The notes beneath the pieces were generated by a model that did not search any database, had not been told where the DNA came from, and worked only from the letters and a program-made list of their open reading frames with translations. This document shows positions 5,473 to 43,892 of a DNA stretch of 64,000 bases, one piece after another. This DNA is from an uncultured bacterium (GTDB lineage Bacteria > Patescibacteriota > Minisyncoccia > Phycocordibacterales > GWA1-40-21). A program made the position numbers and the translations under genes. Location of the stretch: assembly GCA_903831305.1 (NCBI GenBank), contig CAIKXE010000004.1:147524-211523 (forward strand), read 5' to 3'. Every line of letters starts with the position of its first letter. Within the stretch, counting starts at the first letter, position 1.

Positions 5473-5643
5473 CTCCACCACCTCCCCTCGAGGACTCGGT
5501 ACTCCTCCTTAATCAAGGAGGAGAAAGGGGAGTTGCTAAAACTGAGTACTAATGTTCCCTTTCCCCACCTTAGTCAAGGCGGGGTGGTGAGTCTGCGAAC
5601 CAGGGCGGTTGTGTTAGCTTTATTTCTATATTACTATCTATCA

Positions 5644-6519
5644 ATGCTAAAAATATTAGATGGACGAGTGGTGCGGGATAAGATAATGGCGGATTTGAAA
5701 AAAACCGTTGGTACTTTCAAAGTGGTGCCTAATTTAGCCATCATAAAGATCGGGGATAATCCAGATTCTGCTGTCTATGTCAAAAATAAAATTTCTTTCG
5801 CTAAAAAGATTGATGTGAATGCTTATGTGGTTTATTTTCCTCCCGGGGAAATCACTCAGGAAGTGCTCTTGGCTGAAATTGAAAAATTAAATAAAGATGA
5901 TGCGGTGAATGGCATTATCATTCAATCACCATTACCAGAACCGCTAAATTGGGCGGAGGCCGTAGAGGCGGTGGTACCAGAAAAAGATGTGGATGGCCTG
6001 ACGGCGGTCAATGTCAAAAAGTTATTAGGGAATGATTTGTCTGGTTTTGTCCCGGCCACGGCGCGCGGGGTTTTATCCTTGCTAAATTATTATGAAATAC
6101 CAATTAAGGGTAAAAAGGTGGTGGTGATGGGGCGGTCAGCCTTGGTGGGTAAGCCCGTGGCTAATTTAATGCAGAACAGTGGTGCCACAGTGACCGTTTG
6201 CCACAGTAAAACCGTTAATCCCGAAAAAGAAACCAGAGAAGCGGACATTTTGATTGTGGCTATTGGTCAGCCAGAGCTTGTGGGGGCGGATTATGTGCAG
6301 GTGGGGCAAGTGGTGATAGATGTGGGTATTACTTCGGTCATAAATGCTGATGGTACAAAAAAAGTCCTGGGGGATGTGGATTTTGAGTCCGTTAAAAACA
6401 TTGTTTCGGCTATTTCTCCGGTTCCCGGTGGGGTGGGCCCTATGACCGTAGCCTCTTTATTTCAAAATTTAGTGGAGGCAGTAGAAAGAAAAAACCGTCA
6501 GGACATACTTTCCGTTTAA
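5644..6519 (+). CDS. folD: Bifunctional methylenetetrahydrofolate dehydrogenase/cyclohydrolase
   Basis: MLKILDGRVV… start and Rossmann motif VVVMGRSALVGKPVANLM. The listed ORF starts upstream, but a FolD-like start (ATG at 5644) is in frame. Confidence 0.8.
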   Translation: MLKILDGRVVRDKIMADLKKTVGTFKVVPNLAIIKIGDNPDSAVYVKNKISFAKKIDVNAYVVYFPPGEITQEVLLAEIEKLNKDDAVNGIIIQSPLPEPLNWAEAVEAVVPEKDVDGLTAVNVKKLLGNDLSGFVPATARGVLSLLNYYEIPIKGKKVVVMGRSALVGKPVANLMQNSGATVTVCHSKTVNPEKETREADILIVAIGQPELVGADYVQVGQVVIDVGITSVINADGTKKVLGDVDFESVKNIVSAISPVPGGVGPMTVASLFQNLVEAVERKNRQDILSV

Positions 6520-6559
6520 CGGAGTACCTAATCACTTCAAGTATGTCCTGACGGTTTTT
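6491..6559 (+). terminator. Rho-independent terminator hairpin after folD
   Basis: aaaaaccgtcaggacatact … agtatgtcctgacggttttt. It is a ~20-bp perfect inverted repeat whose 5' arm overlaps the end of folD, followed by TTTTT. Confidence 0.5.
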
Positions 6560-6617
6560 CCCCTAATATGCTATAATACCCCTGTCGGTACTTTTATTAA
6601 GTTAATTTATAAAAAAT

Positions 6618-7481
6618 ATGGAAAATACGAATAATCAAAATAGTTGTTGTGAAGGTGGAGTTTGTAAGGACGGTGCTACTTGTGGTTCTTGTTGTAAAAT
6701 GTGTGAAAACATGGGCATGTGCCATGGTGGTAAGGGCCACAAAATAATGAAGTTTGCTGTTATTATCATTGTCATCCTTATCATTGTTAAAATTCTTGGT
6801 GGTGGTCATGGTGACTGGAGAGATAATAAAGTAATAAACACCATTACCGTCTCTGGTACTGGTGAAATAGTGGTCAAGCCAGATATTGCCACTGTTTCTT
6901 TTGGTGTTACCGCTGAAAATCTGGATGTAGCCAAAGCGCAAACAGAGTCCGCCACAAAAATAAATAATATTATTGCTTTCCTAAAAACTAAGGGCGTTGA
7001 GGAAAAGGACATTAAGACTACAAACTATAGTATCTACCCTCGTTATAATTATGTCGGTGCTACTACTTATTATCCTTACACTGGCAGGCAGGTACTCGCG
7101 GCTTATGTTATTTCTCAGAACATAGAAGTAAAAATCCGAAATATTGCTGATGCCGGCGCCGTTCTTACTGGGGTGGGTGAGTTTGGAGTGACGGATGTCA
7201 GTGGTTTGACTTTCACCGTGGATAATCAAGATGCCGTAAAGGATCAAGCCAGGGACCTTGCTATCACTGATGCCAAGGCTCAAGCCAAGGTTTTAGCTAA
7301 TGGTTTGGGAGTAAAATTAGTCAAGATCACTAGTTTTTCTGAAGGTGGAAACTATCCAGTATATTACGCTATGGATAAGGCCGCTGTTTCTGGTATGGGT
7401 GGAGGTGTTGTGGCCCCTCAAATACCAACCGGGGAGAACAAAATCACTTCTACTGTCAGCGTCACTTACGAAATCAGATAG
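6618..7481 (+). CDS. SIMPL/DUF541-domain protein with Cys-rich cytoplasmic N-terminus and single TM
   Basis: Residues ~80-287 match the SIMPL / 26-kDa periplasmic immunogenic protein pattern (TITVSGTGEIVVKPD…, …TVSVTYEI). The N-terminal 40 aa contain 10 Cys plus His (CCEGGVCKDGATCGSCCKMCENMGMCHGGKGH) followed by a hydrophobic helix. Confidence 0.55.
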   Translation: MENTNNQNSCCEGGVCKDGATCGSCCKMCENMGMCHGGKGHKIMKFAVIIIVILIIVKILGGGHGDWRDNKVINTITVSGTGEIVVKPDIATVSFGVTAENLDVAKAQTESATKINNIIAFLKTKGVEEKDIKTTNYSIYPRYNYVGATTYYPYTGRQVLAAYVISQNIEVKIRNIADAGAVLTGVGEFGVTDVSGLTFTVDNQDAVKDQARDLAITDAKAQAKVLANGLGVKLVKITSFSEGGNYPVYYAMDKAAVSGMGGGVVAPQIPTGENKITSTVSVTYEIR

Positions 7482-7590
7482 CGTTTCTAGGGTAATTTGA
7501 TTTTGGAGGCTTCACAGCCGGGTAGGCGAGAGAGAGCAAATTTTCAGCAGAAAATTATGCGCACTCCAAAATTAAATTACCTAGAAACGC
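7481..7590 (+). repeat. Copy A of a ~72-nt structured repeat element embedded in the loop of a terminator hairpin
   Basis: Outer stem gcgtttctagggtaattt / aaattacctagaaacgc encloses the core 7501-7572 (ttttggaggcttcacagccgggtaggcgagagagagcaaattttcagcagaaaattatgcgcactccaaaat). The core is internally palindromic (ttttggag…ctccaaaa; gcaaattttc…gaaaattatgc). Confidence 0.5.
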
Positions 7591-7673
7591 GGACATTGCA
7601 TTTTGTTTTGCTACGTGGTAGTATTAAAAGACCTCGGAGACGGGGTTTTTTAATAAAAGAATAATATAAAACT

Positions 7674-7871
7674 ATGTCAAAACTAGGAGAATATTTGAAG
7701 GAAACAAAGGCGGAGTTAAAGCATGTGAGCTGGCCATCTAAGAATCAGGCGGTGTTATTCACTGTGATTGTTGTCGTTTTTTCTATCATTGTGGCTATCT
7801 TCCTGGGGGCTTTTGACTATATTTTTACCATTGGACTCAAAAAAGTTTTGGAGCTCAAAAATCTGATTTAA
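7674..7871 (+). CDS. secE: Preprotein translocase subunit SecE
   Basis: 65 aa with a single C-terminal TM helix and the conserved synteny directly upstream of nusG. The pattern …KETKAELKHVSWPSK… is typical SecE. Confidence 0.75.
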   Translation: MSKLGEYLKETKAELKHVSWPSKNQAVLFTVIVVVFSIIVAIFLGAFDYIFTIGLKKVLELKNLI

Positions 7872-7895
7872 TAATTTAAATTTTAAACCAAATAA

Positions 7896-8441
7896 ATGGC
7901 TAAACAAAATATACAAGAAGGTAGAAATTGGTATGCTATCCACACTTATGCGGGTTATGAAAATGCCGTGGCTAGAAATCTAAAGCAGAGAATTGACTCC
8001 TTGAATATGAATGACAAGATCTTTGAGGTGATTGTTCCGATTGAGAAAAAGATTAAAATCAAAGGTGGTAAAAGAATAGAAGAGGAAGAGAAGATCTACC
8101 CCGGTTATGTCCTGGTGGATATGGCCGTGACTGATGATTCCTGGTATGTAGTGAGAAACACCCCTCGGGTGACCGGGTTTGTGGGTTCTGGGGTTTATCC
8201 GGTACCGCTAAGTAAAGAGGAGGTAGACAATATTTTCAGCCGAATGAACGCCAATACCGTCAAGCATAATAGCGGTTTGTCTGTAGATGACGCGGTGGTG
8301 ATTACGGATGGTCCGTTTAAGGATCTGGAAGGTAAGGTGAGTGAGGTGGATAACGAGCGTGGTAAGGTCAAGGTGTTGGTTTTGATGTTTGGCCGGGAGA
8401 CTTCTGTGGAGCTTGATATGTTGCAGATTCGCCCAATTTAA
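7896..8441 (+). CDS. nusG: Transcription termination/antitermination factor NusG
   Basis: NGN domain (WYAIHTYAGYENAV) and C-terminal KOW motif (GKVSEV…GKVKVLVLMFGRETSVELD). Confidence 0.85.
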   Translation: MAKQNIQEGRNWYAIHTYAGYENAVARNLKQRIDSLNMNDKIFEVIVPIEKKIKIKGGKRIEEEEKIYPGYVLVDMAVTDDSWYVVRNTPRVTGFVGSGVYPVPLSKEEVDNIFSRMNANTVKHNSGLSVDDAVVITDGPFKDLEGKVSEVDNERGKVKVLVLMFGRETSVELDMLQIRPI

Positions 8442-8498
8442 GGTAGTTTATTAATAGTCTGATTCGCTTCTAAGTCAGACAAATTATAAAATAAAAAA

Positions 8499-8924
8499 AT
8501 GGCAAAGAAAATAACAAAAAAATTAAAGTTACAAATCCCGGCTGGTAAAGCTAATCCCGCTCCACCAGTTGGCCCCGCTCTTGGTCAGGCTGGTATTAAT
8601 ATCGGTGACTTCGTCCAAAAGTTTAATGCCGCTACCGTGAAGATGATGGGGGACATTGTCCCGGTGGAAATCACTGTTTATGAGGATCGTTCTTATGATT
8701 TTAAACTAAAGACTCCACCCGCAACCGGTTTGATTCTTAAGGCCGCTGGCGTGGAGAGTGGTTCTGGTAAGCAATTAGTCAAAAAGGCTGGTACTATCAC
8801 TCGTGCTCAGGTCAAAGCCATCGCGGAGAAGAAAATGGCTGATCTAAATGCCAATGATATCAACGGTGCCATGAAAATCATTGAGGGCTCTTGTAGGTCT
8901 ATGGGGGTGGAAGTGAAGGGGTGA
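8499..8924 (+). CDS. rplK: 50S ribosomal protein L11
   Basis: [35 protein letters not shown]… is canonical L11. Confidence 0.95.
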
Positions 8925-8933
8925 TTTTGTTCG

Positions 8934-9036
8934 CCCCGTAACTATATCATTTTGGAGTGCGCATAATTTTCTGCTGAAAATTTGCTCTCTCTCGGCTACC
9001 CGCCTGTGAAGCCTCCAAAACGATACAGTTACGGGG
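8934..9036 (-). repeat. Copy B of the ~72-nt structured repeat element (inverted relative to copy A), in the loop of the rplK terminator hairpin
   Basis: Outer stem ccccgtaactatatcatttt / aaaacgatacagttacgggg. Core 8949-9020 is the reverse complement of the copy A core with 2 substitutions in 72 nt. Confidence 0.5.
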
Positions 9037-9061
9037 CTCACCTAAATAATTGATATTACAA

Positions 9062-9100
9062 ACAAAAAACAACCCTTTATCAAGGGTTGTTTTTTGTACT
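9062..9100. terminator. Hairpin terminator
   Basis: aaaaaacaaccctttatcaagggttgttttttg, with A-run and T-run on either side. Confidence 0.5.
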
Positions 9101-9120
9101 GTGGGGTGTAAAATCAAGGG

Positions 9121-9615
9121 ATGGAAAATACTAAATATGTGCGACCGAGTTGGGATGAATATTTTATGAATATTGTGCGAGCCGTTGGCGGGAGGGCTAC
9201 TTGTGATCGGGGGCGAACCGGCTGTGTGATTGTAAAAGATAAACATATTATTTCCACTGGTTATGTGGGAGCACCGGCTGGTTGTAAAAGCTGTGATGAG
9301 GTTGATCACGAATTAAACACGGTCATTCAGGAAGATGGTACCCAAACAAAACATTGTGTGCGGACTACTCACAATGAACAAAACGCGCTTGTTCAAGCTG
9401 CTCGTTTTGGTGTCAGTACTGATGGTGGAACTTTGTATTGTATGATGACACCGTGTTATACCTGTGCCAAATTGCTGATTAATGCGGGCATTAAAAGAGT
9501 AGTTGCGGAAAAAGATTATCATGCGGGGACTAGGAGTAAGGCAATATTTGCTGAAGCGGGTGTTCAGTATGAATTATTAAATGCCGAGGTGGTGTCTTAT
9601 TCTAATATGAAATAA
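9121..9615 (+). CDS. dCMP deaminase (cytidine/deoxycytidylate deaminase family, ComEB-like)
   Basis: Zinc-binding motifs H-N-E-Q-N-A (HNEQNAL) and PCYTCAKLLINAGIKRVV. Confidence 0.8.
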   Translation: MENTKYVRPSWDEYFMNIVRAVGGRATCDRGRTGCVIVKDKHIISTGYVGAPAGCKSCDEVDHELNTVIQEDGTQTKHCVRTTHNEQNALVQAARFGVSTDGGTLYCMMTPCYTCAKLLINAGIKRVVAEKDYHAGTRSKAIFAEAGVQYELLNAEVVSYSNMK

Positions 9616-19606: not shown

Positions 19607-22600
19607 ATGGATAATAAAGACATCACTAGTAAAAGTCTCCGGGCACAAAAAGAAGAGCAAATCCTCAAGTTCTGGCAGGATAATCAGATTTTTGAAAAGT
19701 CTTTGGCCAAGGAAGCCCCCAAAGGTGAATTTGTTTTTTATGATGGGCCACCTTTTGCCACCGGTTTACCGCACTATGGGCACCTGCTAGCCGGGACGAT
19801 CAAAGATTACGTGGGTCGCTACCAGACCATGCGCGGGTATCATGTGCCTAGGCGTTGGGGCTGGGATTGTCATGGTTTGCCCGTGGAAAATATTGTGGAG
19901 AAGGATTTGGGCTTAAAGAGTCGAAAGGATATTGAAGAATACGGTATAGAAAAATTTAATGATAAAGCTAAAGCCTGCGTGCTGACTTATGTGGATGATT
20001 GGAAAAAGATCGTTCCGCGCATGGGGCGCTTTGTGGATATGGAGCATGATTATAAAACCATGGACTCTTCTTTTACAGAGAGCGTCTGGTGGATTTTCCA
20101 TAAATTAAACGAAAAAGGTTTGGTTTATGAAGGTTTCAAGTCTATGCATCTTTGCCCGCGCTGTGAGACCACTTTGTCCAACTTTGAAGTGAATCAGGGT
20201 TATAAGGATATCACGGATATTTCTGTGACGGTGAAATTTGCGGTGGTAGGGGAAGCTGGTACTTTCTTCCTAGCTTGGACCACCACCCCTTGGACCCTAC
20301 CAGGAAACGTCGCTCTTGCTGTTGGTCCGGATGTTGATTATGTCAAAATCAAAGTGATGCCCACCGGGGAGAATTATATTTTGGCCAAGGCTCGGTTAGG
20401 GGTGATTAAAGATGATTACGCTATCGTGGAAGAATTTAAGGGCGAGAAGGTGATCGGTCAGTCTTATAAACCCGTTTTTGATTATTACAATAATAAAGAG
20501 ACCAAGAATATTGCCAATGGTTTCAAAGTTTACGGTGCCAGCTTTGTGACAACTACGGATGGTACCGGTATTGTCCATATTGCGCCGGCTTTTGGTGAGG
20601 ATGATATGAACCTAGGTAAGGAAAATAATCTACCCTTTATCCAGCACGTAGGGACGAACGGGCGGTTCAAACCAGAAGTGACGGATTTTGCTGGTCTTTT
20701 GGTAAAACCAAAAGATGATAAGGAGTCTGGACAGGATCATCAGAGCTCGGATATTTTAGTAATTAAATATTTGGCGGGAAAAGGGACTTTGTTTGCTAAA
20801 GAAAAGTTGATTCACTCTTATCCACATTGCTGGCGTTGTCAAACCCCGCTTTTAAATTATGCTTCTTCCTCCTGGTTTGTGGAAGTAACTAAATTTCGAG
20901 ATGATTTGGTAAAAGCAAATAAAGGGATTAACTGGGTGCCAGTCGATATCAAGGAAGGGCGGTTTGGCAAGTGGCTAGAAGGAGCCCGGGATTGGGCTAT
21001 CTCCCGTTCGCGTTACTGGGGTGCGCCTTTGCCGGTCTGGCGTTGTGATGGCTGTGCCAAGAAAGAATTTATCGGCTCGGTAGAAGATTTAAAAAAGAAA
21101 ACTGGCGGACGAAATAATTTTTATGTCGTACGGCACGGCGAGGCTGATAATAATGTGCTCGGTATTATTAGCTCGGATCCTAAACGGCCGCATCATCTGA
21201 CAGAGAAGGGAATTTTGCAAGTTAAAGAGGAGGCGGAAAAGCTAAGGTCAAAAAAGATTGATTTGATTTATGTTTCACCCTTTGTCCGGACCCAAGAGAC
21301 CGCTAAAATAATTGCTGAAATTTTAAATATTCACCCGGATAAAGTTATTACTGATGATCGTATCCACGAAGTTTATGGTGGCGAGCTTGATGGAAAAACT
21401 GATGCTGAATATCAACGTTTCTTTGGCTCGCGTTTGGAGAAATTTGATAAGACTCCTGTCGGTGGGGAAAATTATACGCAGATAAAAAACCGGATGACAG
21501 AATTTGTCTATGATGCTAATTCTAAAAATAAGGGCAAGAATATTTTAATCATTAGTCATAATACGCCAATCTGGCTCATGTTTGCTGGAATCTTTGGCCT
21601 TGACCCAGCTCAGACCATAGACCTTCGTCGTGAGGCTAGAGATTTTATAAAGAACTCAGAGGTCAAAGAATTACCTTTTGCGCCGATCCCGCATAATCAT
21701 AATTATGAATTGGACTTGCATCGGCCATATATTGATGAGGTGACTTTTGCTTGTCCTTGCGGTGGTACTATGAGGCGGGTACCAGAGGTATTTGACTGTT
21801 GGTTTGAATCCGGCTCCATGCCGTTTGCTCAGGCTCATTATCCGTTTGAAAATCTAGACAAATTTAATCCGCACCCGGGAATGTTTAGAAAGCCGGTAGG
21901 CTTTCCAGCAGAATATATTGGTGAGGGTTTGGATCAGACTCGGGGGTGGTTTTACTCTATGCTGATCTTGTCTGTCGGTTTATTTGGCGAGTCTTCTTAT
22001 AAAAATGTTATTGTAAATGGGATTATCTTGGCTGAGGATGGGCAAAAGATGTCCAAAAGTTTGAAGAATTATCCGGATCCGATGATTTTGGTGGACAAAT
22101 ACGGCGCTGATGCCTTGAGGTATTATCTGTTATCTTCACCGGTAGTCCGGGCGGAGGATCTATGCTTCTCGGAAGCGGGGGTGGATGAAGTGATGAAGAA
22201 GATTTTGACTAGGTTAGACAATGTCTTTTCTTTCTATGAGATGTATAGTAAAGAGTCCTCGGTGCCGGTTAGAAACTTTGTGCCAGAGTCAGAAAATATT
22301 TTGGATCAGTGGATCCTTATTAGATTAAAGGAACTTATTATTGCTGTGACTGGTGCCTCTGATAAATATGAGATGGACCGGGCGGTTCGGCCAGTGATGG
22401 ATTTTGTGGATGATTTGTCCACTTGGTATTTGCGTCGTTCCCGTGACCGCTTTAAATCTGCTAATCAAAAGGATAAAGTCCAGGCTATCCAGTCTACTCG
22501 TTTTGTCTTGGAGGAATTGACAAAAGTGATTGCCCCGGTGATGCCTTTTTATGCTGATGAACTTTACCAAAAAGTAAAATCTTTTGAGGGTAAAGAGAGT

Positions 22601-23140
22601 GTGCATTTATCAGCTTGGCCAGAGGTGGTTAAACTGACTAAAGTGGATGAAGCGGTAAAGATTAGCATGGAGGAGGTTAGAAAAATTGTTTCCTTGGGCC
22701 TTGAAGCCCGAGCTAAATCAAATATTAAAGTCCGTCAGCCCCTTGCCAGCCTTAAGGTTAAAGAGGGTAAGGTGATTTTGTCAGATTTGTATTTAAGTCT
22801 GATCCAGGATGAAATAAATGTAAAGAAAGTGATTTTTGATAAGACTATTATTGAGGCCGTGGAGCTTGATCTGGTCATTACGCCCGAGCTTAAGGAGGAG
22901 GGGGCGGTACGCGAGCTTACTCGAGCTATTCAGGAACTGCGCAAGCAAGAAAAGCTGTCTCCGACGGATTTTGCGAGTTTGAAAATTAAGACGGATGAGC
23001 GCGGTAAAAAGCTCGTCCAAAAGTTTGAAGCGGAAATAAAGAAAACCACCTTGATCAAGATTATTTCTTTTGAGGAGTTTGACGTGGAGTCAGTGACGGT
23101 GGTAGATGATTTGTCTTTTGGTCTAAAAATAAACCGATGA
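19607..23140 (+). CDS. ileS: Isoleucine--tRNA ligase (type 2, eukaryote-like) carrying an in-frame histidine-phosphatase (PGM-family) domain insertion
   Basis: HIGH motif PHYGHLLAG, KMSKS motif KMSKSLKN, CP1 editing domain, Zn-ribbon CPRCETT / WRCDGC / CPCGG. Residues ~500-690 (nt ~21100-21690) contain VVRHGEADNN…ISHNTPIW, a histidine phosphatase superfamily fold, not IleS. Confidence 0.9.
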   Translation: MDNKDITSKSLRAQKEEQILKFWQDNQIFEKSLAKEAPKGEFVFYDGPPFATGLPHYGHLLAGTIKDYVGRYQTMRGYHVPRRWGWDCHGLPVENIVEKDLGLKSRKDIEEYGIEKFNDKAKACVLTYVDDWKKIVPRMGRFVDMEHDYKTMDSSFTESVWWIFHKLNEKGLVYEGFKSMHLCPRCETTLSNFEVNQGYKDITDISVTVKFAVVGEAGTFFLAWTTTPWTLPGNVALAVGPDVDYVKIKVMPTGENYILAKARLGVIKDDYAIVEEFKGEKVIGQSYKPVFDYYNNKETKNIANGFKVYGASFVTTTDGTGIVHIAPAFGEDDMNLGKENNLPFIQHVGTNGRFKPEVTDFAGLLVKPKDDKESGQDHQSSDILVIKYLAGKGTLFAKEKLIHSYPHCWRCQTPLLNYASSSWFVEVTKFRDDLVKANKGINWVPVDIKEGRFGKWLEGARDWAISRSRYWGAPLPVWRCDGCAKKEFIGSVEDLKKKTGGRNNFYVVRHGEADNNVLGIISSDPKRPHHLTEKGILQVKEEAEKLRSKKIDLIYVSPFVRTQETAKIIAEILNIHPDKVITDDRIHEVYGGELDGKTDAEYQRFFGSRLEKFDKTPVGGENYTQIKNRMTEFVYDANSKNKGKNILIISHNTPIWLMFAGIFGLDPAQTIDLRREARDFIKNSEVKELPFAPIPHNHNYELDLHRPYIDEVTFACPCGGTMRRVPEVFDCWFESGSMPFAQAHYPFENLDKFNPHPGMFRKPVGFPAEYIGEGLDQTRGWFYSMLILSVGLFGESSYKNVIVNGIILAEDGQKMSKSLKNYPDPMILVDKYGADALRYYLLSSPVVRAEDLCFSEAGVDEVMKKILTRLDNVFSFYEMYSKESSVPVRNFVPESENILDQWILIRLKELIIAVTGASDKYEMDRAVRPVMDFVDDLSTWYLRRSRDRFKSANQKDKVQAIQSTRFVLEELTKVIAPVMPFYADELYQKVKSFEGKESVHLSAWPEVVKLTKVDEAVKISMEEVRKIVSLGLEARAKSNIKVRQPLASLKVKEGKVILSDLYLSLIQDEINVKKVIFDKTIIEAVELDLVITPELKEEGAVRELTRAIQELRKQEKLSPTDFASLKIKTDERGKKLVQKFEAEIKKTTLIKIISFEEFDVESVTVVDDLSFGLKINR

Positions 23141-34383: not shown

Positions 34384-34537
34384 CTTCAAATAAAAACACT
34401 CAAGGAGTATTCTCGGCACTCCTTGGGTGTTTTTAAATATATTTTACTTCTTCGCCAGATAAAGTGTGCGGAGCACTTCCACTAAATCCCCACCTTTTCT
34501 AAGGCGGGGTGGCCTTCCTAGGCCGGGGCGGTGAGCG

Positions 34538-36433: not shown

Positions 36434-36448
36434 TTTTTTCTTTTTTTT

Positions 36449-36538
36449 GAGACTAGGAAATGTTTAATTTTAAAATGTCTGGCCGAAGTTCTGACGAGGA
36501 GATCCGAGGACTTTTAAAATTAAACATTTCCTAGTCTC
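36449..36538. repeat. Perfect 27-bp inverted repeat with 36-nt spacer immediately upstream of recA
   Basis: gagactaggaaatgtttaattttaaaa (36449-36475) and ttttaaaattaaacatttcctagtctc (36512-36538) are exact reverse complements. Spacer is tgtctggccgaagttctgacgaggagatccgaggac. Confidence 0.6.
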
Positions 36539-36548
36539 AGTTATTAAA

Positions 36549-39535: not shown

Positions 39536-39926
39536 TTGTTTTAAGATTATTTGTGTAATTATATCATAGTATATGCCAGTATTAAAATCCAAATAGATGT
39601 TTCTCTCCAATAAAAACATTTAAATTGTTTGTGTCTGGTTTTGAGACCGGTCCTGTTGCCTATAAAGGCCGGTCAAAAGACGCGAGGACCAAATAATTTG
39701 AATAGTTTTTATTGGGGATATTGTATTTACATCTTGATTCTGATGTAGCGTATTACGGTATTTACCCTTTACATTATTTCACTGTCCGTTATATAATGGA
39801 CAAAAGGTTTTTTCTAAAAAAGTCATATTTTTCTCAAAAGGACAGTGTTAAAGACACCTAAGAGACAGTAAACCTAGACTAGGCTTTGGGAATACCCAAG
39901 GTCGAGCCTAGGTTTACAACAACATC

Positions 39927-40664: not shown

Positions 40665-41514
40665 TAGGCCTTCGTCGAACCATCTTCCTTTGGAGGGGCT
40701 TTTGAGCCTGACTGAGGTGAAAACGGAGAATTTTTTTAGCAGAAAAAATTCGTACCAGGGATATGGATGTGGTGAGAAAGAAGGCTGGTAAGGATTGGCA
40801 GAAGAAATAGGGGAAAAGGGTTGCTTTTTACCCCATAATATGCTATCCTTTCCCCTGTGGATTATGGCTCTTTATTGAGTTATCCACAGCCCCTATTTTG
40901 CTTATTTCCTAAGTAAAATATATAATACAGGGACAAGTAGTGTTAGCACCATTTTGTGCTATACTATTTATACCTTATACGAGTGATCTTTGATAAATAA
41001 ATAGAGTCGTAAATCACTGAAATTTCTTTTTCTATTACGCTGTTATAGATTGAATTTCCTTTCCATTCTTATCACTACAATTTCGCTGTTCTTATGTCGA
41101 AATCTTGAGTGCTGGATACTTAAAACAAATATTTATTTTGCCCTTTGTGTTTGTTTTTGGTATCCAGTGCTTGAGATAATATCTGAGCACGAAATATAGT
41201 TTGAAATTATGATAATCATCAGTTTGATATTTTAAAGTGATTATCGGAAAGCGGAGGGTAACAAGCAGGTCAAATTATGTTTGTCATCTTTCGTGAAGGA
41301 TAAAAATATTTTTCTTTGTGAATCGTCAGATTCATCAAAGGAGGTTCGGCCAGTTTTTAGTCGAAACTATGCCGACCATTTCTTAATAAAAAAAATTAAG
41401 AAATGTAGTTTATAAAAATGATCTCTTCTCACATTATTAAATTTTATTAGTTAAGTAGAAGAAATCATTGACTCACTTCTTTACGGAAGGGAGATAATTA
41501 AAAAATTATAAATC

Positions 41515-43640: not shown

Positions 43641-43892
43641 GTGTTGGAACAATGTTCAAAATGTCTCAAATATTTTGGTCCATCAATCTCCGCTTTAGAT
43701 AAGGCGGAGTGTCATTCTTATGACGAGGCGGTGTGATTTTACCTGTGGATAACTATTGTCGTTGCGTATTGATATGTTAATCTATTAAAGATATAATATA
43801 TAGGTGTCTTGTGTTTTATTATTAAAATATGAGGAAGTAATTTAGTCGATTATTTTTCCTTTTAAATTTATTTTATTATTAGCATTATTAAT

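What the first reader, a model, noticed from the sequence alone, without database searches (positions are those of the whole stretch)
7481..9036. Two inverted copies of a ~72-nt palindromic structured element, each lodged in the loop of a terminator hairpin, bracketing secE-nusG-rplK
Core A (7501-7572, + orientation) and core B (8949-9020, reverse orientation) are 70/72 identical. Each core is internally self-complementary (ttttggag…ctccaaaa ends; gcaaattttc-agca-gaaaattatgc centre). Each sits inside a different longer hairpin (gcgtttctagggtaattt…aaattacctagaaacgc and ccccgtaactatatcatttt…aaaacgatacagttacgggg). Those outer hairpins look like the native terminators of the upstream genes (SIMPL-domain gene; rplK). 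The picture is of a small MITE/REP-like element that inserts into hairpin loops, or alternatively a conserved structured RNA module. It is not explained by any coding feature.
Basis: seen in the sequence. Interest (0 to 1): 0.7.

Follow-up and report, generated by a model that had tools for sequence, protein, structure and literature searches.

The report
Structured hairpin repeat family in Saccharibacteria
The two inverted 72-nt sequences are real copies of a previously undescribed ~110-nt hairpin repeat of Candidatus Saccharibacteria, with a strongly conserved three-way-junction tip on a fast-changing stem, that was gained and lost as a whole unit rather than inserted into existing terminators.

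Summary
Core A (7501-7572, +) and core B (8949-9020, -) are 70/72 identical. Their two differences are one compensatory C-G to G-C swap in a small hairpin. Each core caps a long, different stem.

The element is a multi-copy repeat of Candidatus Saccharibacteria, found at unrelated loci in several MAGs and metagenomes. Relatives with empty sites lack the outer stems too, and the real rplK terminator (9062-9097) is conserved in all of them. So the stems belong to the element and are not native terminators. A and B occur independently of each other in relatives, so they do not form a functional bracket.

The cap folds into a three-way junction that covariation supports (19 of 24 pairs changed on both sides). 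Only one strand keeps the fold (56 G-U pairs against 8). The cap diverges far less than its stem or than four-fold sites. It matches nothing in Rfam, phages or plasmids, and the window encodes no transposase.

Best reading: a non-autonomous hairpin element propagated through a folded single strand. The main rival is a host-used structured RNA module. It is a new variant of a known kind, of moderate interest.

The parts
7481..7590 (+). Element A, whole hairpin. It starts at the G of the stop codon of the SIMPL-domain gene and ends 6 nt before the secE promoter-like -35 hexamer.
   Evidence: absent as a unit from empty sites in L022-24, L034/35, L028/30 and L037-39
7481..7497 (+). A, 5' arm of the variable basal stem (GCGTTTCTAGGGTAATT). 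It pairs with 7575-7590.
   Evidence: L036 has CTAG->CCGG in both arms, two compensated pairs
7498..7574 (+). A, conserved cap. P1 = 7498-7508/7564-7574, including a conserved G.T wobble. P2 = 7517-7519/7525-7527 with loop GGGTA. P3 = 7536-7545/7550-7560 with loop AGCA and bulged A7557. Junctions are GCTTCACA, GAGAGAGA and GCA.
   Evidence: covariance model R1 107 bits; covariation
7575..7590 (+). A, 3' arm of the variable basal stem (AATTACCTAGAAACGC).
8933..9037 (-). Element B, whole hairpin, cap antisense to rplK and dcd. It lies between the rplK stop (8924) and the real terminator.
   Evidence: the same element at the same site and orientation in L036 and L037
8947..9023 (-). B, conserved cap. 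P2 is GGC/GCC, the form seen in all other copies.
   Evidence: model R1 107 bits
9062..9097 (.). Not part of the element: the conserved bidirectional terminator hairpin after rplK (16-bp perfect stem, A-run and T-run).
   Evidence: I8; conserved in every relative, with or without an element
7596..7660 (+). Not part of the element: the conserved secE promoter-like TTGCAT-17-TAGTAT and the leader terminator-like GACCTCGGAGACGGGGTTTTTT.
   Evidence: read from sequence; conserved in all relatives; the simple scan did not flag it
40687..40760 (+). Distant member of the same superfamily ('variant 4'). It has the same P1/P2/P3 layout, and its homologue sits after rplK in L020.
   Evidence: model R1 18.4 bits, E 0.12 here; L020:11051-11130 30.3 bits, E 1.4e-4

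Best explanation
**What it is.** A and B are two separately inherited copies of a ~105-115-nt 'cap-and-stem' hairpin repeat specific to one clade of Candidatus Saccharibacteria.

**Shown.**
- The whole hairpin, stem plus cap, is what is present or absent at a site.
- The 72-78-nt cap is nearly invariant between loci and species. It folds on one strand only into a three-way junction: P1, a small P2 hairpin, and an A/U-rich P3 hairpin with an AGCA loop and a bulged A.
- The basal stem differs at every locus, changes fast, and only keeps its pairing.
- The cap can lie in either orientation inside homologous stems and relative to the neighbouring genes.
- No enzyme is encoded beside it.

**Inferred.** It is a non-autonomous selfish element whose active form is the folded single strand, most likely single-stranded DNA. 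A protein encoded elsewhere in the genome would recognise the cap, following the logic of REP/RAYT and IS200/IS605 ends. Copies would then be made, lost and re-oriented through that intermediate.

**Side effect.** When transcribed, either strand forms a very stable hairpin in the 3' UTRs of the SIMPL-gene and rplK mRNAs.

**Relation of A to B.** They are not a functional pair.
For: - **Repeat family.** Caps at least 96% identical to A/B lie at unrelated loci. These include sites next to a methyltransferase-secF-secD cluster and beside other unrelated genes, read from ORF translations only. The contigs are from 2 metagenome records and 3 species-level Saccharibacteria MAGs, and each copy has a different stem.
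- **Assembly behaviour.** Contigs from other samples break exactly inside the cores, as expected for a repeat.
- **Unit of insertion.** Empty sites lack both stem and cap.
- **Independence of A and B.** The occupancy of the two sites differs between relatives.
- **Fold.** 94.8% of cells are paired against 76.8% in shuffles (0/500). 19 of 24 pairs have changes on both sides. Slid controls give 40-51%. RNAalifold independently recovers P1, P3 and part of P2, with 18 of 22 pairs compensated.
- **One strand selected.** In all 15 copies and variants the cap '+' strand is 4-21 kcal/mol more stable than its complement. G-U pairs number 56 against 8.
- **Constraint.** Window vs L037, element B: the 72-nt core differs at 5 positions (two of them one compensated P1 pair) and the stem arms at 11 of 28, my counts from the sequences. 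Four-fold sites of nusG and rplK differ by 49-62%. In a sliding comparison the cap bins are the most conserved stretch of the region.
- **Orientation.** About half of the copies are antisense to the flanking genes. At site A the cap is + in window, L036 and L012 and - in L002, L020 and L013, inside recognisably homologous arms. This fits a DNA-level entity better than a cis-acting RNA.
- **No known match.** No Rfam family matches. No transposase, reverse transcriptase or recombinase domain was found in the window's ORFs.
- **Precedent.** REPINs are hairpins in ssDNA or mRNA with compensatory changes, mobilised in trans by a single-copy RAYT (PMC3116915). RAYT reads an imperfect hairpin in ssDNA (PMC3479197).
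Against: - No candidate enzyme was found, and none could be searched for in these genomes with the caps available.
- No target-site duplication or conserved outer terminus is visible, and the arms are unrelated to neighbouring sequence. How each copy obtains its own stem is unexplained.
- Conservation of the cap at orthologous copies is more than a purely selfish, decaying repeat predicts. A keeps GCC/GGC and B keeps GGC/GCC in both the window and L036. This points to selection on each copy, which suggests host use.
- A related module ('var2') always lies sense-oriented right after rplK and pairs with the last rplK codons with covariation. That looks like an RNA function.
- Only about 0.3 Mb of related DNA could be examined, so copy number per genome is unknown.
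- The covariation alignment was fitted to the model's structure.
- Recombination between lineages is evident: the B hairpin plus flank is 100% identical in L036 although four-fold sites differ by 31-35%. This blurs the rate comparisons.
Confidence: 0.45

Rival explanations
1. A host-used structured RNA module. The cap would be a protein-binding or catalytic three-way junction presented on a long helix in intergenic transcripts. It might act as an RNA processing or stability signal, an RNase III-type punctuation mark, or a small RNA released from 3' UTRs. In this view the repeat character only reflects how it spread.
For: - The cap is the most conserved stretch of the region, including its unpaired junctions and loops.
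- A and B have kept their private P2 variants in two lineages.
- The fold is maintained by compensatory changes and G-U pairs.
- The var2 relative is always sense-oriented after rplK, and its 5' arm covaries with the rplK codons it pairs with.
- All copies lie in transcribed intergenic spacers next to gene ends.
Against: - About half of the copies, including B in three lineages, are antisense to both neighbouring genes.
- No conserved promoter travels with the cap, and the simple scan finds none.
- The cap flips orientation inside homologous stems.
- No Rfam family matches, including all known self-cleaving ribozymes, even at E up to 10.
- The neighbouring genes share no common function.
Confidence: 0.3
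2. A ~78-nt MITE (TGATTTTGGAG...CTCCAAAATTA) transposes on its own and targets the apex of pre-existing hairpins such as terminators, so the variable stems are native host sequence.
For: - The conserved unit ends in an 11-nt imperfect inverted repeat.
- Every copy has a different stem.
- The cap occurs in both orientations inside homologous stems at site A.
- Some outer stems elsewhere look like bidirectional terminators, with an A-run, a GC-containing stem and a T-run (L009, L010a, L011).
- From memory, some insertion sequences do target palindromes (IS1397 in REP loops, IS1630 in terminator-like repeats).
Against: - At both window sites the stem is never seen without the cap in about 10 empty orthologous sites.
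- The A and B stems lack a T-run, and the real terminators are separate and conserved.
- The stem runs into P1 with no leftover loop bases.
- No clear target-site duplication was found.
- No autonomous relative was found.
Confidence: 0.12
3. A and B act as a pair. The 77-nt inverted repeats would serve as recombination sites that invert secE-nusG-rplK, or as ends of a composite mobile unit, or they would pair with each other in one transcript.
For: Two 95%-identical inverted copies lie 1366 nt apart. Another inverted pair brackets methyltransferase-secF-secD in L010.
Against: - A and B are found separately in relatives, and the gene order and orientation of secE-nusG-rplK is the same in all 30+ loci fetched.
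- The A-specific double change keeps the hairpin within the copy but creates two mismatches in an A:B duplex.
- No contig shows the inverted arrangement.
Confidence: 0.03

Closest known systems
REPINs / REP elements mobilised by RAYT (Y1/HUH) transposases
   Same: Both are short, non-coding, intergenic, multi-copy hairpins predicted in ssDNA or mRNA. Both show compensatory changes between arms, imperfect features in the stem, and no enzyme encoded beside them. REPINs persist for a long time within a lineage (PMC3116915, PMC3479197).
   Different: In REPINs the two ends (the REPs) are the conserved part and the central spacer is variable. Here the centre is conserved and the ends are variable. 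No 5' GTAG-like guide was found and no RAYT was identified. The tip is a three-way junction rather than a simple loop.
Bacterial MITEs (Correia/NEMIS, RUP, ERIC, Nezha)
   Same: The size is similar (~100-150 bp). Both are palindromic, sit between genes in both orientations, and vary in presence between strains.
   Different: MITEs have conserved terminal inverted repeats and a target-site duplication, and they derive from a recognisable IS. Here the outermost ends differ in every copy, no duplication is seen, and no parent IS was found. The properties of these families are recalled from memory.
Rickettsia palindromic elements (RPE)
   Same: Both are clade-restricted hairpin repeats in a small, host-dependent genome. 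Both are retained at orthologous sites, and their mobilising mechanism is unknown. One hairpin element in the window even extends an ORF (folD, 6488-6561), as RPEs do.
   Different: There is no sequence relation. RPEs are conserved along their length, whereas here only the cap is conserved. This comparison is from memory.
Integron attC sites and IS200/IS605 ends (structure-read ssDNA recombination sites)
   Same: One strand folds, and function in these systems depends on structure with extrahelical bases. The bulged A in P3 and the conserved G.T wobble here fit that pattern. The fold is conserved through covariation.
   Different: attC conserves the base of the hairpin (the R and L boxes) and varies the tip, which is the opposite of this element. 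No cassette, integrase or tnpA/tnpB context is present.
Intrinsic (Rho-independent) terminators
   Same: Both are stable hairpins right after stop codons.
   Different: There is no U-tract. The stem is 25-28 bp and carries a 55-nt branched tip. Separate canonical terminators lie next to both copies.

Membership tests
REPIN / REP-RAYT system | Two highly conserved REP sequences in inverted orientation at the ends, separated by a less conserved spacer | tested here: not met
   The ends differ in every copy and the centre is conserved. REPIN layout is from PMC3116915.
REPIN / REP-RAYT system | A RAYT (Y1 transposase) gene in the same genome | not testable with these tools
   None was found among the window ORFs or among the Pfam labels of the fetched loci. 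Whole genomes could not be scanned.
REPIN / REP-RAYT system | Hairpin in a single strand with compensatory changes | tested here: met
MITE (DDE-transposase derived) | Conserved terminal inverted repeats at the outer ends of the inserted unit | tested here: not met
   The inserted unit includes the variable stem. Only the inner 11-nt repeat TGATTTTGGAG/CTCCAAAATTA is conserved.
MITE (DDE-transposase derived) | Target-site duplication flanking the insertion | tested here: inconclusive
   Comparison of filled and empty sites shows no clear duplication. Arms are unrelated to flanks. A TA duplication cannot be excluded because it would extend the palindrome.
MITE (DDE-transposase derived) | A related autonomous IS with the same ends | tested here: not met
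   None was found in about 0.3 Mb of related loci with model R1. ISL3 and rve-type transposases seen in L026 and L015 have unrelated ends.
Intrinsic terminator with an inserted element | The outer hairpin exists without the insert in relatives, and a U-tract follows the stem | tested here: not met
Any described RNA family (Rfam 15), including self-cleaving ribozymes and ribosomal-protein leaders | Match to a curated covariance model | tested here: not met
   There were no gathering-score hits in the window or in L019, L025 or L037. Only chance-level miRNA and snoRNA hits appeared at E 0.5-10.
Protein-coding or tRNA-derived feature | A conserved reading frame or a tRNA-like gene | tested here: not met
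   The frames through A and B end differently. Substitutions are compensatory for pairing, not synonymous. ARAGORN finds nothing.

The most novel reading that the evidence does not exclude
The cap is a new class of functional structured nucleic acid in Candidate Phyla Radiation bacteria. One possibility is a protein-binding or catalytic three-way junction that the host uses at many intergenic sites regardless of gene orientation. Another is the recognition module of a new structure-guided mobile system that rebuilds its own stem at each site. The var2 copies after rplK hint at the second option: an exact 21-nt direct repeat plus a 9-nt inverted copy of the rplK end flanks the module.
Probability: 0.15. 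Interest if true: 0.8.

Novelty: new variant of a known kind. Interest (0 to 1): 0.55.

Why it matters
Saccharibacteria and other Candidate Phyla Radiation bacteria have tiny, tightly packed genomes, and I found no paper describing their repeats or non-coding elements in the searches I ran.

This family, together with at least three other hairpin families seen in the same loci, shows that their few intergenic spacers are actively colonised by structured hairpin elements. These elements turn over between related lineages.

The conservation pattern is the reverse of REPINs and MITEs: an invariant branched tip on a free-running stem. That makes it a useful test case for two questions. One is how structure-read elements propagate. 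The other is whether such elements are co-opted for handling mRNA 3' ends.

On the practical side, the elements break short-read assemblies at essential operons, and they could serve as strain markers.

Tried and rejected
- **Rfam.** Searched at gathering and at E up to 10, on the window, on the element alone and on three related loci. Nothing was found.
- **tRNA and tmRNA.** None.
- **Hammerhead.** CUGACGAG occurs in a related hairpin (36444-36543) and in var2. Read by eye, the GAAA and stem II requirements are not met, and Rfam agrees.
- **Coding potential.** The frames through A and B are inconsistent.
- **Own promoter or terminator.** The simple scans flag nothing at A or B. A TTGATA-17-TGTAAT motif upstream of B on the - strand also exists at empty sites, so it is not evidence.
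- **Target-site duplication, or arms copied from flanks.** Negative for core-1 copies.
- **18-nt inverted match 7430-7447 / 8921-8938.** It is not conserved in L036, so it is probably chance.
- **Phage, plasmid and viral-contig searches.** No match.
- **Literature.** No paper describes such an element in Saccharibacteria or Patescibacteria.
- **L11 or L1 autoregulatory mimic.** Rejected because copies sit beside unrelated genes.
- **Inversion switch.** Rejected because gene order is constant in all loci.
Full report
**1. Observation**

The sequence is as described. The 71-nt core pattern matches 7501-7571 (+) exactly and 8950-9020 (-) with two mismatches. It matches nowhere else in the window, and shuffles give no expected matches. 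The repeat finder gives a 77-nt, 95% inverted repeat 1366 nt apart, plus the two outer inverted repeats.

The full hairpins (7481-7590 and 8933-9037) fold at -52 and -58 kcal/mol as RNA, with z = -8.5 and -10.7. They are also stable as DNA.

The two A/B differences (7518 and 7526) are the two sides of one base pair of the GCC-GGGUA-GGC hairpin, so they are a single compensatory swap. The genes between the copies are secE, nusG and rplK. A SIMPL-domain gene lies upstream and a dCMP deaminase gene downstream.

**2. Source and family**

The window matches an ENA lake-metagenome contig. Exact sub-patterns of the core hit three species-level 'uncultured Candidatus Saccharibacteria' MAGs and two JGI metagenome contigs. 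They hit nothing in viral contigs, phages or plasmids.

In these loci the cap is at least 96% identical to A/B. It lies next to unrelated genes: a methyltransferase-secF-secD cluster, a site between ORFs that read like relA and parB, a site beside a YraN-like ORF, and secE again. These gene names come from ORF translations only. Each copy sits on a different long stem.

Short contigs from other samples end inside the cores, as assemblers do at repeats.

**3. The stems are not native terminators**

I fetched secE-nusG-rplK loci from relatives with 78-100% NusG identity.

- *Site A (after the SIMPL gene or upstream of the secE promoter).*
  - Occupied with cap +: window, L036, L012.
  - Occupied with cap -: L002, L020/21, L013.
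  - Empty: L022-24, L034/35, L028/30, L037-39. There the stop codon is followed within 3-30 nt by the promoter TTGCTT, with no hairpin.
- *Site B (after rplK).*
  - The same element with cap -: window, L036, L037.
  - A distant variant with cap -: L020.
  - A related 'var2' module in sense orientation: L002, L019 (two in tandem), L025-29, L034.
  - A remnant: L016-18.
  - Nothing: L022/23, L031, L014/15.

No empty site keeps an outer stem. The conserved terminators are separate features: 9062-9097 after rplK, and the secE leader hairpin plus T-run at 7639-7660. So the hairpin as a whole is the gained or lost unit, and A and B are independent of each other.

The same loci hold at least three other hairpin families. 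A 'TTTTAAAA' family fills the nusG-rplK spacer in L036, L014-17 and L025-30 but not in the window, L018 or L019. L018/L019 and L014-17 share an identical NusG protein. The window has members of this family at 36444-36543 and 39602-39720.

**4. Structure**

A covariance model built from six core-1 copies finds all core-1 copies at 95-107 bits. It also finds diverged relatives:
- L010:3902-3980 (52 bits);
- L022:17093-17174;
- var2 copies;
- 'variant 4' at window 40687-40760 and L020:11051-11130.

On the 15-sequence alignment, 94.8% of cells pair against 76.8% in shuffles (0/500). 19 of 24 pairs show changes on both sides. Sliding the partners drops pairing to 40-51%. RNAalifold recovers P1, P3 and part of P2, with 18 of 22 pairs compensated. 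The caveat is that the alignment was fitted to the model.

Concrete examples of compensation:
- P1 GGAG/CUCC becomes AAGG/CCUU in L020 and AGAG/CUCU in L037.
- P3 AAAUUUUC/GAAAAUU becomes AAAAUUUC/GAAAUUU in L020 and AACUUUUC/GAAAAGU in var2.
- P2 GGC/GCC becomes GCC/GGC in A.
- Outer stem A CTAG/CTAG becomes CCGG/CCGG in L036.

**5. One strand is the selected one**

In all 15 copies the cap '+' strand folds 4-21 kcal/mol better than its complement. G-U pairs number 56 against 8. Yet roughly half of the copies are antisense to their neighbours.

At site A the arms of six lineages are recognisably homologous (TAG|CG..TTTC.T.G... on the left, ATTA.C..AGA on the right), while the cap points either way. 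The cap, together with its TGA/TTA junction, has therefore flipped inside a homologous stem.

**6. Rates**

Four-fold sites of nusG and rplK differ from the window by 31-35% in L036, 49-62% in L037 and 11-22% in L002.

| Comparison with the window | Core | Stem |
|---|---|---|
| L036, elements A and B | identical in sequence; A keeps GCC/GGC and B keeps GGC/GCC | A: two compensated pairs changed; B: identical |
| L037, element B | 5 of 72 positions differ (two are one compensated pair) | 11 of 28 arm positions differ |

These counts are mine, taken from the sequences. In a sliding comparison the cap is the best-conserved 40-nt bin of the region.

So the cap is under sequence constraint and the stem only under a pairing constraint. 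One caveat applies. The B hairpin and its flank are 100% identical in L036, which may reflect a recent recombination tract.

**7. What it is not**

- It matches no Rfam family, including ribozymes and ribosomal-protein leaders.
- It is not a tRNA.
- It has no consistent ORF.
- No promoter or terminator was called at A or B.
- No transposase, reverse transcriptase or recombinase domain was found in the 56 window ORFs scanned.
- There is no target-site duplication, and the arms show no relation to the flanks.
- I found no paper describing it.

**8. Mechanism**

The shown facts are these: a repeat family, a whole-hairpin unit, a one-strand fold, a constrained cap, a free stem, either orientation, and no linked enzyme.

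They fit best a non-autonomous element whose active form is a folded single strand read at the cap by a protein encoded elsewhere. REP/RAYT and IS200/IS605 are the precedents (PMC3116915, PMC3479197). I put this at about 0.45.

The main rival, at about 0.30, is a host-used RNA module. Two facts support it. The per-copy conservation is stronger than a decaying selfish repeat predicts. And var2's 5' arm covaries with the last rplK codons in sense orientation.

Some stems elsewhere (L009, L010a, L011) do look like bidirectional terminators, and the cap does flip.

How each copy comes to have its own stem is unexplained. In L025 and L028, var2 is flanked by an exact 21-nt direct repeat of the rplK end. 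This is the only trace of an insertion mechanism that I found.

**9. Verdict**

This is a real and previously undescribed member of the world of bacterial palindromic repeats. Its conservation pattern is inverted relative to REPINs and MITEs, which makes it a new variant of a known kind. Interest is moderate (0.55). It would be higher if the cap proves to be a functional RNA or the handle of a new structure-guided mobile system.

Noticed in passing
window 40665-41514: An ~850-nt gene-free stretch, unusually long for this compact genome. It begins with the variant-4 relative of the cap (40687-40760). Rfam finds nothing in it at gathering score.
   Followed up: partly
window 6488-6561: A hairpin with 23-bp arms whose left arm encodes the last codons of folD and whose loop holds the stop codon. 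L036 lacks it and has a different, shorter FolD C-terminus. L037-39 have it, with a conserved loop and compensated stem changes. A hairpin element has therefore been absorbed into an ORF end.
   Followed up: partly
window 36444-36543 and 39602-39720: Two members of a second hairpin family, with arms ...TTTAATTTTAAAA and centre GTCTGG...CGAGGAC. One lies just upstream of recA and the other at the 5' end of ftsK. Both fold better on the window + strand (-46.9 vs -43.5 and -54.2 vs -34.5 kcal/mol). Relatives carry this family in the nusG-rplK spacer, which is empty in the window.
   Followed up: partly
L025:1534-1645, L028, L034:10998-11109, L019:2561-2836, L002:1370-1450: A 'var2' module lies directly after rplK. 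An exact (L025/L028) or near-exact 21-nt direct repeat of the rplK 3' end flanks a 9-nt inverted copy of that end plus a cap-like module with GACG-loop and AGCA-loop hairpins. L019 has two units in tandem with three different rplK-end copies, and L016-18 keep a remnant.
   Followed up: partly
window 7596-7660: A conserved secE leader. A promoter-like TTGCAT-17-TAGTAT is followed by a terminator-like hairpin plus T-run ahead of secE-nusG in every relative. This may be an attenuator of the nusG operon.
   Followed up: no
window 8924-9121: rplK is followed by a terminator and a dCMP deaminase gene rather than by rplA. All relatives show the same break in the usual rplK-rplA order.
   Followed up: no
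window 7430-7447 vs 8921-8938: A 17/18 inverted match between the 3' part of the SIMPL gene and the rplK stop plus the flank of element B (E 0.005 within the window). It is not conserved in L036, so it is probably chance.
   Followed up: yes
window 5562-5587, 34487-34512, 43687-43712: Three copies of a 26-nt motif, TCCCCACCTTAGTCAAGGCGGGGTGG, which is itself a small GC-rich inverted repeat.
   Followed up: no
L037:1900-2070 and L037:2850-3040: A third hairpin family with conserved termini (TTAACCCCGT ... ACAGGGTGATGATTTT) and a variable interior. It is inserted in the secE leader and in the nusG-rplK spacer of the L037-39 lineage.
   Followed up: no
L022:5037-8803; L026:935-2131; L015:1-120: Other mobile features lie beside the same operon in relatives. 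L022 has a diversity-generating-retroelement-like bAvd + RT pair next to the SIMPL gene. L026/L027 have an ISL3 transposase upstream of secE. L015 has what looks like the end of an rve-type transposase.
   Followed up: no
window 19607-23140: The class-I tRNA-synthetase ORF (labelled Ile/Leu/Met/Val type) carries an inserted histidine-phosphatase (His_Phos_1) domain at residues 506-671.
   Followed up: no
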